From a virus, in IMG/VR virus record IMGVR_UViG_3300032144_000004, positions 1 to 64,000 of that record: 64,000 bases of DNA; one strand, 5' to 3'. Under the pieces are notes generated by a model. The model was given only the letters and a program-made list of their open reading frames with translations. It was not told where the DNA came from and did not search any database. Every line of letters begins with the position of its first letter. Positions within the stretch are counted from its first letter, which is position 1. Shown in pieces: positions 14,933 to 17,352 of this stretch. The position numbers were made by a program, and so were the translations under genes.

Positions 14933-16618
14933 ATGGACAAGACTCTGTTTGCAACGCAGCGCGGCAAACTCGTGCCGCCGGCGGATACTAAGAACGCAGC
15001 AGGCGGTCGCGCCTATTCGCGCAGCCCGAAAGAGGCGCTCGCCCAGTACGCCGCAACCGGCATGTTCGGCGACACGTTCTATGCCGACGCCGAAGAGCAG
15101 CTTACTGAGGTGCTCAAACTCGCGGAGCGATGCAGCACCCAGTACATCCTGAAGTGCGCCGTCTACGCGCGCGAAGCCGGCTGGCTCAAGGATATGCCGG
15201 CGGTCCTGCTGGCCGTCGCCTCGTCGCGCTTGAGGGGCGGCATCGTCGGCAGCGGCCCTGACTACTTCCCCGATCGGGAGGCGTTCGCCGAGGCGTTTAG
15301 GCGCATCGTCGATAACGGCAAGATGCTCCGCAATTTCTTCCAGGTGTCGCGCTCGGGCGTCACCGGGCGCAAGAGCTTGCCGCACATCGCGCGCCGGCTG
15401 GTGCGTGAGTGGCTCAATAAGCGTCGCAGCTCGCAGTTGATGCGCGACCAGATCGGCGAGAGCCCATCGCTTGCGGACGTCATCAAAGCACTGCACCCGA
15501 AGCCCGTGCACGATGAGCAGCGCGCGATGTTTGGGTACCTCACGGGGCCAGTGAGCAAGAAGACCAAGCTCGGCAACGTGATGGAGCGCTACGACCCGGA
15601 CAAGCTCTATCAGCTCGTGAAACAGTACGAAGCGTTCAAGCTGGCCGAGGCGTCCGAGCGCGAGGTGCCCGAGGTCGACTTTCGGCTCCTGGACTCGCTG
15701 ACGCTGTCCGATGCCGAGTGGCGCACCGTGTTCAAACGTGCGGAGTGGCAGTTCACGCGCATGAACTTGAACACGGCTTTGAGGCACAACGTGCTCAAAG
15801 ACTCGGAGATGCTGAAGCTCATCACCGATCGCATCGGCAACCGCGAGCAAGTGCGCGCGTCGCGCAATTTCCCTTACCAGCTTCTGCAAGCCTGGCGGAA
15901 CATCGACAAGGACATGCCGGTCGAGATCAAGTTCGCGCTCCAGGATGCGATGGAGCATGCGACCGAGAACGTGCCGGAGATCCCGGGCAACATCGTCATT
16001 GCGCTCGACATCTCGGGTTCGATGCAAATCGAGTTCATGAAGCGTAAAGACGGTAAGCCGTCGCTCATCTCCGCGCTCGACGTGGCGGCACTCTTTGCCG
16101 CGGTGCTGATGCGCAAAAACCCACGAGCGATCCTCTTGCCGTTCCACCAGATGCTCATTCCGCATCACGGGCTCAACCCGCGCGACACGATCACCACGCT
16201 GATCGACAACATTAAGCGCTTGCCCTCGGGTGGCACGGATTGTTCCTTGCCGCTTTTGTGGCTCAACGGCATCAACGACAAGCGGCAAGCGATCACCGGC
16301 ATCGACACGGTCATCTACCTGTCTGACTATGAGTCGTGGGCCGATCAGCTGGAAAACCAGCGCATGCCGGGCACGGGGATGATGGAGCAGTGGCAGATGC
16401 TCAAGCAGCGCAACCCCAAGGCGAAGCTCGTCTGCATCGACATGACGCCGAAGCCGCACCAGCAAGCGACGAACGGAGAAGACCGTTTGAACGTCGGCGG
16501 GTTCAACGATCAGGTATTCAAAGTGGTCGCGGAGTTCTTGAAGACCGGAAGCGGAAGCGCTTTCGTCGACAAGATCGAGTCACTCGACTTGACGCAAGCG
16601 AAAAACACCGCTAGCTAA
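14933..16618 (+). CDS. rsr: Ro60 ortholog (Rsr): TROVE domain plus vWA domain
   Basis: 561 aa. N-terminal NAAGGRAY...GMFGDTFY (TROVE-like), MIDAS motif LDISGSM, and SGGTDCSLPLLW, which matches the AGGTDCSLP motif I recall in human Ro60. The C-terminal ...NVGGFNDQVFKVVAEFL parallels the Ro60 C-terminus. Confidence 0.9.
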   Translation: MDKTLFATQRGKLVPPADTKNAAGGRAYSRSPKEALAQYAATGMFGDTFYADAEEQLTEVLKLAERCSTQYILKCAVYAREAGWLKDMPAVLLAVASSRLRGGIVGSGPDYFPDREAFAEAFRRIVDNGKMLRNFFQVSRSGVTGRKSLPHIARRLVREWLNKRRSSQLMRDQIGESPSLADVIKALHPKPVHDEQRAMFGYLTGPVSKKTKLGNVMERYDPDKLYQLVKQYEAFKLAEASEREVPEVDFRLLDSLTLSDAEWRTVFKRAEWQFTRMNLNTALRHNVLKDSEMLKLITDRIGNREQVRASRNFPYQLLQAWRNIDKDMPVEIKFALQDAMEHATENVPEIPGNIVIALDISGSMQIEFMKRKDGKPSLISALDVAALFAAVLMRKNPRAILLPFHQMLIPHHGLNPRDTITTLIDNIKRLPSGGTDCSLPLLWLNGINDKRQAITGIDTVIYLSDYESWADQLENQRMPGTGMMEQWQMLKQRNPKAKLVCIDMTPKPHQQATNGEDRLNVGGFNDQVFKVVAEFLKTGSGSAFVDKIESLDLTQAKNTAS

Positions 16619-16623
16619 TTACG

Positions 16624-16689
16624 CGGGCAGATGCTCGACGGGATTCCATCTAATCGCAATTGAAGGTCTCGTCATCACCTCGCTGCCCG
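16624..16689 (+). ncRNA. Y-RNA-like module 0: long bulged hairpin without a tRNA-like domain
   Basis: Closing helix CGGGCAG (16624-30) / CTGCCCG (16683-89). Shared internal loop ATGC / ATCACCTCG. Second helix GACGGGATT (16637-45) / GGTCTCGTC (16665-73). Starts 6 nt after the rsr stop. Confidence 0.6.
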
Positions 16690-16700
16690 TTACTTTTCTG

Positions 16701-16841
16701 ACGTCCTCAGATGCGAAAGGCACTTCATCTCCCGCTACAAACCTATGGGAGATTAGCTCAGTGGTAGAGCGCCGGCCGACAGGCTGGAGGTCGTTGGTTC
16801 GACTCCAACATTTTTGTCTTTCACCTACTCGCTGAGGACGT
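16701..16841 (+). ncRNA. Y-RNA-like module 1 with an embedded tRNA-like cloverleaf (acceptor looped off, anticodon loop reduced to 6 nt)
   Basis: Closing helix ACGTCCTCAG / CTGAGGACGT (10 bp). Internal loop ATGC / ACCTACTCG. Helix 2 GAAAGGC / GTCTTTC. Inside: ATCTCCC-13 nt loop-GGGAGAT TA GCTC AGTGGTA GAGC G CCGGCC GACA GGCTGG AGGTC GTTGG TTCGACT CCAAC. Confidence 0.65.
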
Positions 16842-16853
16842 TGTTTCTTTTCT

Positions 16854-16987
16854 GTCGCCAGATGCCGAGGGCTTTACATCCGCTTTTAACGGGGTGGTCG
16901 CAGGTTCGAGTCCTGCCGTTCTGGGAAACCAGGACGTAGCTCAGTTGGTAGAGCGCCTAAGTTGAGTCCTCATTACTCGCTGGCGAC
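16854..16987 (+). ncRNA. Y-RNA-like module 2 with a tRNA-like cloverleaf permuted at position 26/27 and a Lys-type CUUUUAA loop
   Basis: Closing helix GTCGCCAG / CTGGCGAC. Internal loop ATGCC / ATTACTCG. Helix 2 GAGGGCT / AGTCCTC. Inside: ATCCG CTTTTAA CGGGG TGGTC GCAGG TTCGAGT CCTGC CGTTCTG-G GAAA C-CAGGACG TA GCTC AGTTGGTA GAGC G. Confidence 0.65.
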
Positions 16988-16996
16988 GTTTTTCAT

Positions 16997-17097
16997 GTCC
17001 ACAGATGCACATCGGCGCTCCTTCTCGCAAAGAACACGTTCGAACCGTGTAACCAGCCCGGTCGGCGGGCATGCGTCGTTACCCAATCGCTGTGGAC
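16997..17097 (+). ncRNA. Y-RNA-like module 3 with only a T-arm-like hairpin and a short capped helix
   Basis: Closing helix GTCCACAG / CTGTGGAC. ATGC follows the 5' strand. Helix 2 CGGCGC / GCGTCG. Inside: ACACG TTCGAAC CGTGT and CCCG GTCGG CGGG. Confidence 0.55.
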
Positions 17098-17120
17098 GCT
17101 GTTTCTGAAGTGTCACTCGC

Positions 17121-17191
17121 ACAACTCCGCCAGAATGGTTCTGGTTGGGTCGTGCCGCCATCAGCATACTGGGGTGCCACTTCGGAGTTGT
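17121..17191 (+). ncRNA. Stem-closed hairpin between modules 3 and 4 (no tRNA-like features)
   Basis: ACAACTCCG (17121-29) pairs with CGGAGTTGT (17183-91). Inner hairpin CCAGAA TGG TTCTGG. Lacks the ATGC / CUCG loop arrangement of the other modules. Confidence 0.35.
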
Positions 17192-17193
17192 TG

Positions 17194-17329
17194 GGTCACG
17201 GATGCTAGACGCAGTACATCTAGGAAGCTTGAGGTCGTTGGTTTGAATCCAACCGCCCCGACCTACGCGGGGCGTAGCGCAGTCTGACAGCGCGCAAGCT
17301 TTGATCTGTGTCGCCACCTCGCCGTGACC
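17194..17329 (+). ncRNA. Y-RNA-like module 4, YrlA-type: the anticodon-stem equivalent continues into the long bulged stem
   Basis: Closing helix GGTCACGG / CCGTGACC. ATGCTA / GCCACCTCG loop. GACGCAG / CTGTGTC, ATC / GAT and GAAGCTTG / CAAGCTTT helices. Then AGGTC GTTGG TTTGAAT CCAAC CGCCCCG-ACCTACG-CGGGGCG TA GCGC AGTCTGACA GCGC G. Followed by CTGTTTTTG. Confidence 0.65.
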
Positions 17330-17352
17330 GCTGTTTTTGAAAGGAATCGACT

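What the first reader, a model, noticed from the sequence alone, without database searches (positions are those of the whole stretch)
14933..17335. Ro60/Rsr gene followed directly by a tandem array of five or six Y-RNA-like, stem-closed RNA modules
The 561-aa ORF has TROVE-like and vWA features (NAAGGRAY, DISGSM, GGTDCSLP).

Six nt after its stop, about 710 nt carry no credible ORF. By eye this stretch splits into modules, each closed by a 7-10 bp helix. The helix sequence differs between modules but stays complementary:
- CGGGCAG 16624-30 / CTGCCCG 16683-89
- ACGTCCTCAG 16701-10 / CTGAGGACGT 16832-41
- GTCGCCAG 16854-61 / CTGGCGAC 16980-87
- GTCCACAG 16997-17004 / CTGTGGAC 17090-97
- GGTCACGG 17194-201 / CCGTGACC 17322-29

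A second, inner helix covaries in the same way: GACGGGATT/GGTCTCGTC, GAAAGGC/GTCTTTC, GAGGGCT/AGTCCTC, CGGCGC/GCGTCG. Each unit is followed by a U-rich spacer such as TTGTTTCTTTTCT or GCTGTTTTTG.

Bacterial Y RNAs are known to be encoded next to rsr, and the YrlA class mimics tRNA. From memory, some phage examples exist. A five-to-six-unit head-to-tail array with mixed architectures behind a phage rsr looks unusual and may be undescribed.
Basis: partly seen in the sequence, partly recalled or inferred. Interest (0 to 1): 0.9.

Follow-up and report, generated by a model that had tools for sequence, protein, structure and literature searches.

The report
Phage Rsr gene with five Y RNAs
A phage-like genome carries a Ro60/Rsr RNA-binding protein gene followed by five different Y RNA genes in a row; this is a known kind of protein-RNA system, and such rows turn out to be common next to related genes.

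Summary
Window 14933-16618 (+) encodes a full-length Ro60/Rsr homologue. The 734-nt gene-free stretch after it holds five head-to-tail modules with the Y RNA signature: an outer helix, an AUGC loop, an inner helix, and a UCG-plus-outer-helix 3' strand.

- **M3 and M5** are YrlA-type, meaning circularly permuted tRNA mimics. On Rfam RF02553, M3 scores 69.0 bits (the gathering score) and M5 scores 39.9.
- **M2** carries a tRNA-like body in native order with a closed acceptor hairpin.
- **M4** keeps only a T-arm.
- **M1** is a short hairpin.
- **The possible sixth unit**, X (17099-17193), is a conserved hairpin without the Y signature. Its function is unknown.

An 81%-identical Rsr locus keeps M2-M5 and X, with 18-20 two-sided compensatory changes.

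Of about 230 related rsr loci (viral contigs, metagenomes, bacterial genomes), 32 have at least five modules on the rsr strand.

Three features are new relative to the papers I could search:
- four architectures in one array;
- the M2 topology;
- a lineage-wide change of the presumed Rsr-binding motif, from CGAAUGC to CAGAUGC.

Verdict: a new variant of a known kind, of moderate interest.

The parts
14728..14932 (.). Divergent intergenic region upstream of rsr. A promoter for the rsr and Y RNA unit is inferred here, not shown.
   Evidence: Called genes upstream are all on the minus strand and end near 14727. The sigma-70 consensus scan found no site in 14500-17800.
14933..16618 (+). rsr: Ro60/Rsr homologue of 561 aa, made of a HEAT-repeat ring and a vWA domain. 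It contains NAAGGRAY (aa 21-28), the MIDAS motif DISGSM (aa 359-364) and GGTD (aa 433-436).
   Evidence: GC3 is 0.84.
16623..16690 (+). M1: a short Y RNA with YrlB-like architecture (a hairpin with an internal loop). The outer helix pairs 16623-30 with 16683-90. The inner helix pairs 16637-43 with 16667-73. M1 is absent from the orthologous locus L002.
   Evidence: Rfam YrlB gave no hit at E<=10.
16699..16843 (+). M2: a Y RNA whose insert is a tRNA-like body in native order:
- closed acceptor hairpin, 16727-33 pairing with 16747-53;
- U8-A9 (the canonical tRNA junction), then the D arm 16756-70;
- anticodon-arm mimic with a 4-nt loop, 16772-87;
- T arm, 16793-16809.
   Evidence: Rfam tRNA scores 41.8 bits on 16747-16817. 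ARAGORN reports 'tRNA-???' with a 2-nt anticodon. Fold z-score is -3.9. The acceptor hairpin shows two two-sided compensatory changes against L002. The same topology occurs in L011, L016, L077, L078, L095, L178 and L182.
16853..16988 (+). M3: a YrlA-type Y RNA, that is, a circularly permuted tRNA mimic:
- variable hairpin;
- T arm, 16900-16;
- closed acceptor stem 16917-36 with a GAAA loop;
- D arm, 16939-54.
   Evidence: Rfam RF02553 gives 69.0 bits (gathering score 69) and E 1.5e-15 at 16855-16989.
16996..17098 (+). M4: a Y RNA with a T-arm-like hairpin (17036-50, loop UUCGAAC) and a second hairpin (17056-70). It has no D arm.
   Evidence: It is conserved in L002, with 5 two-sided compensatory pairs in the consensus structure.
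17099..17193 (+). X: a conserved long hairpin without the Y-stem signature. Its function is unknown. It is found only in this lineage.
   Evidence: Fold z-score is -3.6. It is 87-88% identical to L002, with three single-nt indels, so it is non-coding. It shows no two-sided covariation. It has no Rfam match and no relative in the other loci searched.
17194..17329 (+). M5: a divergent YrlA-type Y RNA:
- T arm 17237-53, with loop UUUGAAU;
- closed acceptor stem, 17254-74;
- D arm 17277-93, with a non-canonical loop.
   Evidence: Rfam RF02553 gives 39.9 bits and E 4e-7 at 17195-17331.
17353..17634 (+). Next gene of the same-strand unit: a 93-aa basic protein of unknown function. It is conserved only in L002.

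Best explanation
This is an rsr and Y RNA operon in a phage-like genome. The Rsr ring protein is most likely co-transcribed with five Y RNAs, which are cut out of the precursor at the U-rich spacers.

Each Y RNA most likely binds Rsr through the helix formed by its 5' and 3' ends: outer helix, AUGC / ACUCG internal loop, then inner helix. Each presents a different second domain:
- two YrlA-type permuted tRNA mimics (M3, M5);
- one native-order tRNA body with a closed acceptor end (M2);
- one T-arm-only domain (M4);
- one plain hairpin (M1).

By analogy with studied Ro60/Rsr particles, the second domain would tether the ring to, or gate it against, partner proteins. Candidates are PNPase or enzymes that recognise tRNA. 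One protein would then form several distinct particles during infection.

**Shown:** the identity of the protein, the RNA architectures, family-level matches, covariation and genomic linkage.

**Inferred:** transcription, processing, Rsr binding and the effectors.
For: **Protein.** vWA_Ro60 scores 65.5 bits. The NCBIfam Rsr model aligns across aa 8-537. A clade profile matches the Ro60/Rsr sequences of solved structures at 1e-32 to 2e-26.

**RNAs.**
- Rfam YrlA hits M3 (69.0 bits) and M5 (39.9 bits).
- All five modules carry the shared signature, and it occurs nowhere else in the window.
- The same signature is found 564 times on the rsr strand of 234 fetched loci (about 230 distinct). It is found 9 times on the opposite strand, 16 times in reversed decoys and 5 times inside rsr.
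- The consensus of those modules, GGCGAAUGC...CUUGUCGCC, matches the Rfam YrlA consensus and the published GNCGAA motif (PMC4201824).

**Covariation with L002** (Rsr 81% identical at the protein level):
- In the consensus structures, 18 pairs changed on both sides and 16 on one side.
- Projecting the window-only folds gives 20 two-sided and 15 one-sided changes kept, and 22 pairs broken.

**Operon layout.** rsr opens a plus-strand unit after a divergent gap. M1 starts 5 nt after the stop codon.

**Precedent.**
- Y RNAs lie on the rsr strand within 4 kb in 254 bacteria and 22 phages.
- Deinococcus Y RNAs are made from a polycistronic precursor (both PMC4201824).
- Phage phiLo Ro60 binds two phage Y-like RNAs and host PNPase (PMC12135203).
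Against: - There are no expression data.
- No promoter or terminator was identified.
- Pfam TROVE is below its cutoff (19 bits against 23). The NCBIfam equivalog cutoff is far from met (83 against 900).
- M1, M2 and M4 are not recognised by any Rfam Y RNA model.
- None of the five modules carries the published GNCGAA motif exactly. They have CAGAUG or CGGAUG instead.
- M4 folds only marginally better than shuffled sequence (z -1.5).
- No RtcB or PNPase gene turned up among the roughly 31 window ORFs I scanned, so the effector is unknown.
Confidence: 0.8

Rival explanations
1. The stretch is a decayed tRNA gene cluster. Pseudo-tRNAs and dimeric tRNA remnants are common in large phages, and the closing helices are incidental.
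For: Rfam tRNA and ARAGORN both hit the core of M2. Many related rsr loci sit in real tRNA arrays. Chen et al. warn that dimeric tRNAs can mimic YrlA (PMC4201824).
Against: - The anticodon arm of M2 has a 4-nt loop, and its 3' acceptor strand lies upstream of the 5' strand.
- M1 has no tRNA arm and M4 has only a T-arm-like hairpin, yet both share the same closing signature.
- The long-range outer and inner helices covary with L002.
- The signature is strand-specific and clustered at rsr.
Confidence: 0.04
2. The stretch is a structured 3' UTR or intergenic regulatory region. It would be a series of stabiliser or attenuator hairpins that control rsr and the downstream gene, and it would not yield separate stable RNAs.
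For: Each unit ends in a GC-rich helix followed by a U-rich tract, which looks like a terminator. The element sits between two co-oriented genes.
Against: - Two units match the YrlA covariance model.
- The tRNA-like interior arms, including the T-loop and D-loop sequences, are conserved. A terminator series does not explain that.
- The terminator scan flagged only the T arm of M2.
Confidence: 0.06
3. The RNAs are real, but they act mainly without Rsr. They would be tRNA-shaped decoys or sponges for host enzymes that target tRNA, or for host defence nucleases. The linkage to rsr would be historical.
For: Three modules carry conserved T-loop and D-loop elbows. Published YrlA RNAs are substrates of tRNA-modifying enzymes (PMC4201824).
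Against: Every module, including the two that lack a full tRNA body (M1, M4), keeps the Rsr-type closing helix. In this lineage that helix changed in concert across all modules, which points to one shared binding partner.
Confidence: 0.08

Closest known systems
Bacterial and phage rsr-YrlA loci (Rfam RF02553; Chen et al. 2014, PMC4201824; YrlA structure, bioRxiv 10.1101/312249)
   Same: - The Y RNAs lie on the rsr strand, directly downstream.
- The closing helix with the AUGC loop is shared.
- M3 and M5 have the T arm, closed acceptor stem and D arm of a circularly permuted tRNA.
- Several Y RNAs per locus are reported: 355 YrlA candidates in 254 species.
   Different: - Five units of four architectures sit in one row.
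- The binding motif is CAGAUGC / CUCGCUG rather than CGAAUGC / CUUGUCG.
- Only M3 reaches the Rfam gathering score.
Deinococcus radiodurans Yrn1/Yrn2 (PMC4201824)
   Same: [quoted passage not shown]
- In Yrn1 the T and D arms are oriented differently from YrlA, and the stem-loop between them sits in the anticodon-arm position. M2 has this arrangement.
   Different: M2 also has a 7-bp closed acceptor hairpin joined to the D arm by a canonical U8-A9 junction, so it mimics a whole cloverleaf. The authors describe the tRNA resemblance of Yrn1 as less evident. I made no sequence comparison with Yrn1.
Thermus phage phiLo Ro60 with Yrl1 and Yrl2 (PMC12135203; PDB 9KOP, 9L5Y)
   Same: It is a phage-encoded Ro60 with adjacent Y-like RNAs. 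The protein is detectably related (E 2e-26). That paper proposes hijacking of host PNPase.
   Different: phiLo has two RNAs, and they lie upstream of the gene. They were defined by a CGAA motif and no tRNA-like domain is described. Here there are five RNAs downstream, three of them with tRNA-like bodies.
Salmonella YrlB (Rfam RF02565) and Mycobacterium smegmatis YrlB
   Same: M1 resembles the short hairpin Y RNAs. M4 resembles M. smegmatis YrlB in keeping a T arm (PMC4201824).
   Different: Rfam YrlB gave no hit on the window at E<=10. The resemblance is in architecture only.

Membership tests
Ro60/Rsr protein | HEAT-repeat (TROVE) ring domain | tested here: met
   Pfam TROVE alone is sub-threshold (19 bits against 23, aa 263-326). 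However, the clade profile aligns over positions 16-508 with D. radiodurans Rsr 2NVO (1e-32), Xenopus Ro60 1YVP (6e-30), human RO60 and phage phiLo Ro60. The NCBIfam Rsr model aligns over aa 8-537.
Ro60/Rsr protein | C-terminal vWA domain with a MIDAS motif | tested here: met
   PF25045 vWA_Ro60 scores 65.5 bits against a cutoff of 27.7, over aa 354-535. D359, S361 and S363 (DISGSM) and G433-G434-T435 (within GGTD) are invariant in the six-sequence alignment.
Ro60/Rsr protein | NCBIfam equivalog score cutoff (NF041674) | tested here: not met
   The score is 83.4 bits against a cutoff of 900. This is a divergent member, not an equivalog by NCBI's criterion.
YrlA (Rfam RF02553) | Covariance-model score at or above the gathering score | tested here: inconclusive
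   M3 scores 69.0 bits, exactly the gathering score of 69. M5 scores 39.9 bits (E 4e-7), below it. M1, M2 and M4 gave no hit.
YrlA (Rfam RF02553) | Permuted tRNA-like domain in the order T arm, closed acceptor stem, D arm, with the Y stem in the anticodon-stem position | tested here: met
   M3 and M5 show this order. M2, M4 and M1 do not.
YrlA (Rfam RF02553) | Encoded on the rsr strand within 4 kb (the criterion of Chen et al. 2014) | tested here: met
   All five modules lie within 711 nt of the rsr stop codon, on the same strand.
YrlA (Rfam RF02553) | GNCGAAN0-1G motif in the 5' strand of the Rsr-binding helix | tested here: not met
   The window has GNCAGAUG in M1 and M3, NCAGAUG in M2 and M4, and CGGAUG in M5. 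The paired 3' strand changes to match. In 557 modules from other loci, position -1 is A in 92% and position -2 is G in 93%.
YrlB (Rfam RF02565) | Covariance-model match | tested here: not met
   No match on 16500-17450 at E<=10.
Y RNA (functional class) | Helix formed by the 5' and 3' ends carrying the Ro-binding site, plus a second internal domain | tested here: met
   This holds for all five modules. The helices covary with L002.
Y RNA (functional class) | Stable small RNA physically bound by Ro60/Rsr | not testable with these tools
   This needs RNA sequencing, Rsr immunoprecipitation or gel-shift assays.
tRNA (RF00005), for the M2 core | Acceptor stem formed by the 5' and 3' ends, and a 7-nt anticodon loop | tested here: not met
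   Rfam tRNA scores 41.8 bits (gathering score 29), but with unpaired acceptor positions. ARAGORN reports 'tRNA-???' with a 2-nt anticodon. The real partner of the 5' acceptor strand lies upstream (16727-33) and closes the stem into a hairpin.

The most novel reading that the evidence does not exclude
The array is a toolkit of adaptor RNAs private to the phage particle. In this lineage all modules have changed the base pairs next to the AUGC loop in concert, from CGA/UCG to CAG/CUG. A second viral lineage (L010, L011, L066) uses yet another loop, AU(C/U)UA...CUCUG, in all its modules.

This suggests that each Rsr co-evolves with its own Y RNAs. The phage ring would then load only phage RNAs and ignore host Y RNAs, and the reverse. 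Each of the four effector domains would dock the ring onto a different host partner that recognises tRNA. That includes a whole-cloverleaf mimic (M2) not described in the papers I could search.
Probability: 0.2. Interest if true: 0.7.

Novelty: new variant of a known kind. Interest (0 to 1): 0.45.

Why it matters
Ro60/Rsr and Y RNAs are conserved from bacteria to humans, where Ro60 is a lupus and Sjogren autoantigen. The partners of the tRNA-like Y RNA domain are still unknown.

- **A natural comparison set.** One locus offers five Y RNAs of four designs that share one binding helix. That allows a direct test of which domain recruits which partner, and of what a phage gains from the system.
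- **Long arrays are normal.** The survey shows that rows of Y RNAs are usual beside this Rsr clade, and that many of these loci sit in tRNA gene arrays.
- **Binding motif drift.** The motif changes lineage by lineage. This gives a testable handle on the specificity between the protein and its RNAs.
- **Annotation risk.** Pipelines will call the core of M2 a tRNA. Rfam recognises two of the five units and misses M1, M2 and M4.

Tried and rejected
1. **Covariance model R1**, built from M2 and its L002 orthologue to count M2-type RNAs. It also hit ordinary tRNAs and YrlA RNAs, so I did not use it for counting. M2-type members were picked by hand from T-arm position and folds.
2. **A motif-free double-helix scanner**. 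It gave as many hits on reversed decoys as on real sequence. I used it only to look at loci where the ATGC scanner found nothing. That revealed the arrays with a variant motif in L010, L011 and L066.
3. **First D-arm pattern.** It failed because of greedy matching and was fixed.
4. **Relatives of X.** BLASTN and nhmmer against all loci found X only in L002/L006. Rfam found nothing.
5. **Myxococcus phage Mx1**, the closest named phage. No YrlA hit at E<0.1 and no scanner hit. Either it has no Y RNAs or they are too divergent to detect.
6. **Megablast of the locus** against GenBank phages gave no match.
7. **Effector genes.** I scanned about 31 window ORFs with Pfam and PHROGs. Only RecT, Sipho_Gp157, VWA, TerC, an amine oxidase and Laminin_G_3 were named. 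This was not exhaustive.
8. **Literature access.** The supplementary tables of Chen et al. 2014, which list per-species and per-phage YrlA counts, are not held. Neither are the two reviews. The largest array already on record could not be checked.
9. **Simple repeat array.** Considered and rejected, because the modules share only motif segments.
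Full report
**1. The observation**

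The 561-aa ORF runs 14933-16618 (+). It has the coding signature of this GC-rich genome, with GC3 of 0.84.

An independent gene call on a second assembly of the same sequence (a 26-kb Logan contig from SRR9694932) shows three things:
- all upstream genes are on the minus strand, ending near 14727;
- rsr opens a plus-strand unit;
- no gene lies between the rsr stop and the ATG at 17353.

The five closing helices and the inner helices are at the stated coordinates. Single-sequence folding recovers them, with z-scores of M1 -2.3, M2 -3.9, M3 -3.7, M4 -1.5 and M5 -2.7.

- an outer helix ending in C(A/G)G, followed by AUGC;
- then an inner helix and a (U)NCAUC-like segment;
- on the 3' side, (A/C)(C/A)(C/U)UCG, directly followed by the 3' strand of the outer helix.

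A scanner encoding only the outer helix, ATGC, T[CT]G and an inner helix finds these five sites and nothing else in both strands of the window. Reversed-sequence decoys gave 8 hits in 1.07 Mb. About 0.003 hits would therefore be expected in 734 nt.

The units are not a repeat array. Only the motif segments and the T and D arms are shared.

**2. The protein**

- Pfam gives vWA_Ro60 at 65.5 bits (cutoff 27.7).
- Pfam TROVE is a sub-threshold fragment, at 19 bits against a cutoff of 23.
- NCBIfam's Rsr model aligns across aa 8-537 at E 1.2e-23, far below its equivalog cutoff.
- A profile of the protein and five relatives matches solved structures over essentially full length: D. radiodurans Rsr (2NVO, 1e-32), Xenopus Ro60 (1YVP, 6e-30), human RO60, and Thermus phage phiLo Ro60 (9KOP/9L5Y, 2e-26).
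- The MIDAS residues (D359, S361, S363) and G433-G434-T435 are invariant among the six aligned relatives.

It is a divergent but full-length Ro60/Rsr.

**3. The RNAs**

Rfam's YrlA model hits M3 (16855-16989) at 69.0 bits, exactly the gathering score, with E 1.5e-15. It hits M5 (17195-17331) at 39.9 bits, E 4e-7.

*M3 and M5.* Both have the YrlA order of T arm, closed acceptor stem and D arm. This is the circularly permuted tRNA described by Chen et al. (PMC4201824) and solved by Wang et al. (bioRxiv 10.1101/312249). The elbow of M5 is degenerate: the T loop is UUUGAAU and the D loop lacks GG. That explains its lower score.

*M2.* This unit is different. Its core is scored as a tRNA by Rfam (41.8 bits) and as 'tRNA-???' with a 2-nt anticodon by ARAGORN. 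Folding shows:
- a 7-bp acceptor stem closed into a hairpin by a 13-nt loop (16727-33 pairing with 16747-53);
- U8-A9, the canonical tRNA junction;
- a canonical D arm;
- an anticodon-arm mimic with a 4-nt loop;
- a T arm;
- the Y stem attached where the T stem would meet the 3' acceptor strand.

It is a different permutation of a tRNA from YrlA.

*M4 and M1.* M4 keeps a T-arm-like hairpin (CACG-UUCGAAC-CGUG) and a second hairpin. M1 is a 68-nt hairpin with an internal loop. Rfam YrlB does not match either.

**4. Related loci and covariation**

The closest named phage is Myxococcus phage Mx1, with Rsr 38.8% identical. One IMG/VR contig (L002, 75 kb) has an Rsr that is 81% identical, with the same downstream layout minus M1.

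| Test against L002 | Pairs | Unchanged | Changed on one side, pairing kept | Changed on both sides, pairing kept | Broken |
|---|---|---|---|---|---|
| Consensus structures of M2-M5 and X | 162 | 128 | 16 | 18 | 0 |
| Window-only folds projected onto L002 | 190 | 133 | 15 | 20 | 22 |

The consensus-structure test is circular, because consensus folding favours pairs that survive. The window-only projection avoids that. Its broken pairs lie in all five elements, most in M4 and M5.

Paired columns are more conserved than unpaired ones in M2, M3, M5 and X.

The acceptor hairpin of M2 changes A-U to C-G and U-A to G-C, while its loop stays 11/13 identical.

**5. Arrays are common**

I fetched 234 rsr loci of this clade from IMG/VR, metagenomes and GTDB genomes. 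About 230 are distinct. The genome hits are mostly Pyrinomonadaceae and other Acidobacteriota, plus Verrucomicrobiota, Planctomycetota and Myxococcota.

Results from the ATGC scanner:
- 564 modules on the rsr strand;
- 9 on the opposite strand;
- 16 in reversed decoys;
- 5 inside rsr, which serves as a gauge of false positives;
- of the same-strand modules outside rsr, 405 lie downstream and 146 upstream.

| Collection | Loci | Loci with at least 5 modules | Maximum |
|---|---|---|---|
| Viral contigs | 73 | 8 | 8 |
| Metagenome contigs | 80 | 11 | 9 |
| Genome contigs | 80 | 13 | 8 |

These are lower bounds, for two reasons:
- many contigs are cut short;
- loci with variant motifs are missed. 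For example, L010, L011 and L066 carry five or six modules that use AU(C/U)UA...CUCUG.

Rfam confirms arrays independently. L114 has seven tandem YrlA hits, L038 has four, L143 has three, and L161 has three plus a YrlB-like hit.

A five-unit array is therefore in the upper range for this clade but not exceptional.

The M2 topology recurs in at least seven other loci, from both viral contigs and bacterial genomes: L011, L016, L077, L078, L095, L178 and L182. Their acceptor-like hairpins all differ in sequence.

**6. A lineage-specific binding motif**

Across 557 modules from other loci, the consensus is GGCGA-AUGC ... CUUG-UCGCC. Position -1 is A in 92% and position -2 is G in 93%. This matches the Rfam YrlA consensus and the published GNCGAAN0-1G motif (PMC4201824).

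In the window, four modules read CAG-AUGC ... UCG-CUG and one reads CGG-AUGC ... UCG-CCG. The two base pairs next to the loop are swapped or changed, and pairing is kept.

Among loci with more than one module, only the window and L002 have G at -1 in every module. Together with the second variant in L010, L011 and L066, this suggests that the helix evolves in concert within a lineage, as expected if all modules must fit one cognate protein. That is an inference. No binding was tested.

**7. The sixth element**

X (17099-17193) folds into a long hairpin with z -3.6. It is 87-88% identical in L002, with three single-nt indels, so it is not coding.

It lacks the Y signature and shows no two-sided covariation. 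It has no Rfam match and no relative in any other locus. I cannot say what it is.

**8. How it most likely works**

*Shown:* a Ro60/Rsr gene, five co-oriented Y-type RNA genes starting 5 nt after its stop codon, and U-rich single-stranded spacers after each. The spacer bias is general: 41-50% T and 7-17% G over the first 7 nt after a module, in 557 modules.

*Inferred from studied systems:*
- The RNAs are co-transcribed with rsr and released by endonuclease cleavage in the spacers. In Deinococcus, Yrn2, tRNA-Asp and Yrn1 come from one precursor. In Salmonella the Y RNAs lie 3' of rsr (PMC4201824).
- Each RNA binds the outside of the Rsr ring through its closing helix.
- Its second domain recruits or gates a partner. 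Examples are PNPase in Deinococcus and with phage phiLo Ro60 (PMC12135203), and an unknown partner at the tRNA-like elbow for YrlA (bioRxiv 10.1101/312249).

Four different second domains suggest several partners.

Among the roughly 31 window ORFs I scanned, none was named as an RNA repair or degradation protein.

**9. Phage origin**

The phage assignment rests on indirect evidence:
- the IMG/VR relatives;
- a RecT and Sipho_Gp157 pair;
- dispersed tRNA genes;
- a large majority of small genes without known relatives;
- a weak MazG hit.

No capsid or terminase gene was identified in the window.

**10. Novelty**

*Already known* (PMC4201824, PMC12135203):
- Y RNAs next to rsr, including in phages;
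- several Y RNAs per locus;
- mimicry of tRNA.

*Not found in the papers I could search*:
- arrays of five or more;
- four architectures in one array;
- the closed-acceptor, native-order tRNA body;
- lineage-wide motif changes;
- the link between rsr and tRNA arrays.

I could not read the supplementary tables of Chen et al. or the two reviews.

I rate the finding a new variant of a known kind, of moderate interest.

Noticed in passing
L189, L191, L185, L158, L126 (bacterial genome and metagenome loci); L073, L018 (viral contigs): In many related loci, rsr lies inside or right after long same-strand tRNA gene arrays. ARAGORN finds 17-35 tRNA genes per fetched locus of 6.7-8.6 kb, and Y RNA modules are interspersed among them (for example L018 1160-1270 and 1673-1801). 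Of 230 loci, 74 have at least 5 tRNA genes and 55 have at least 10. My searches turned up no paper linking tRNA arrays with Rsr.
   Followed up: partly
L136 5425-5540; L143 4403-4520: These Y-stem modules carry yet another tRNA permutation. The order is the 3' half of the D arm, an anticodon arm with a 7-nt loop, the T arm, then the 5' half of the D arm. The break is therefore in the D loop.
   Followed up: no
L010 2037-2695; L011 5202-5869; L066 5202-5860: One viral lineage has five or six modules directly after rsr. Their internal loop is AU(C/U)UA...CUCUG rather than AUGC...U(C/U)G. This looks like a second concerted variant of the presumed Rsr site.
   Followed up: partly
window 17099-17193: A conserved, strongly folding hairpin (X) sits between M4 and M5. 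It lacks the Y RNA signature and has no Rfam match. It is found only in this lineage.
   Followed up: yes
window 16783-16809 and 17227-17253: The variable region and T arm of M2 and of M5 are 89% identical over 27 nt, although the two modules have different topologies. This suggests domain shuffling or a shared origin.
   Followed up: no
window 44322-46589: A RecT-like annealing protein is followed by a Sipho_Gp157-family protein. This is a typical phage recombination module.
   Followed up: no
window 38734-40209 (-), 48638-49261 (+), 49486-50046 (+): Three genes are unexpected for a phage: a flavin amine oxidase (Pfam Amino_oxidase, 3e-71), a small VWA-domain protein, and a TerC-family membrane protein (2e-37).
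   Followed up: no
L001 (Myxococcus phage Mx1, OR576727.2, 52921-62561): The closest cultured phage with this Rsr clade shows no detectable Y RNA within 4 kb, either by Rfam at E<0.1 or by my scanner. Two small CDS and a tRNA-Gly follow its rsr.
   Followed up: partly
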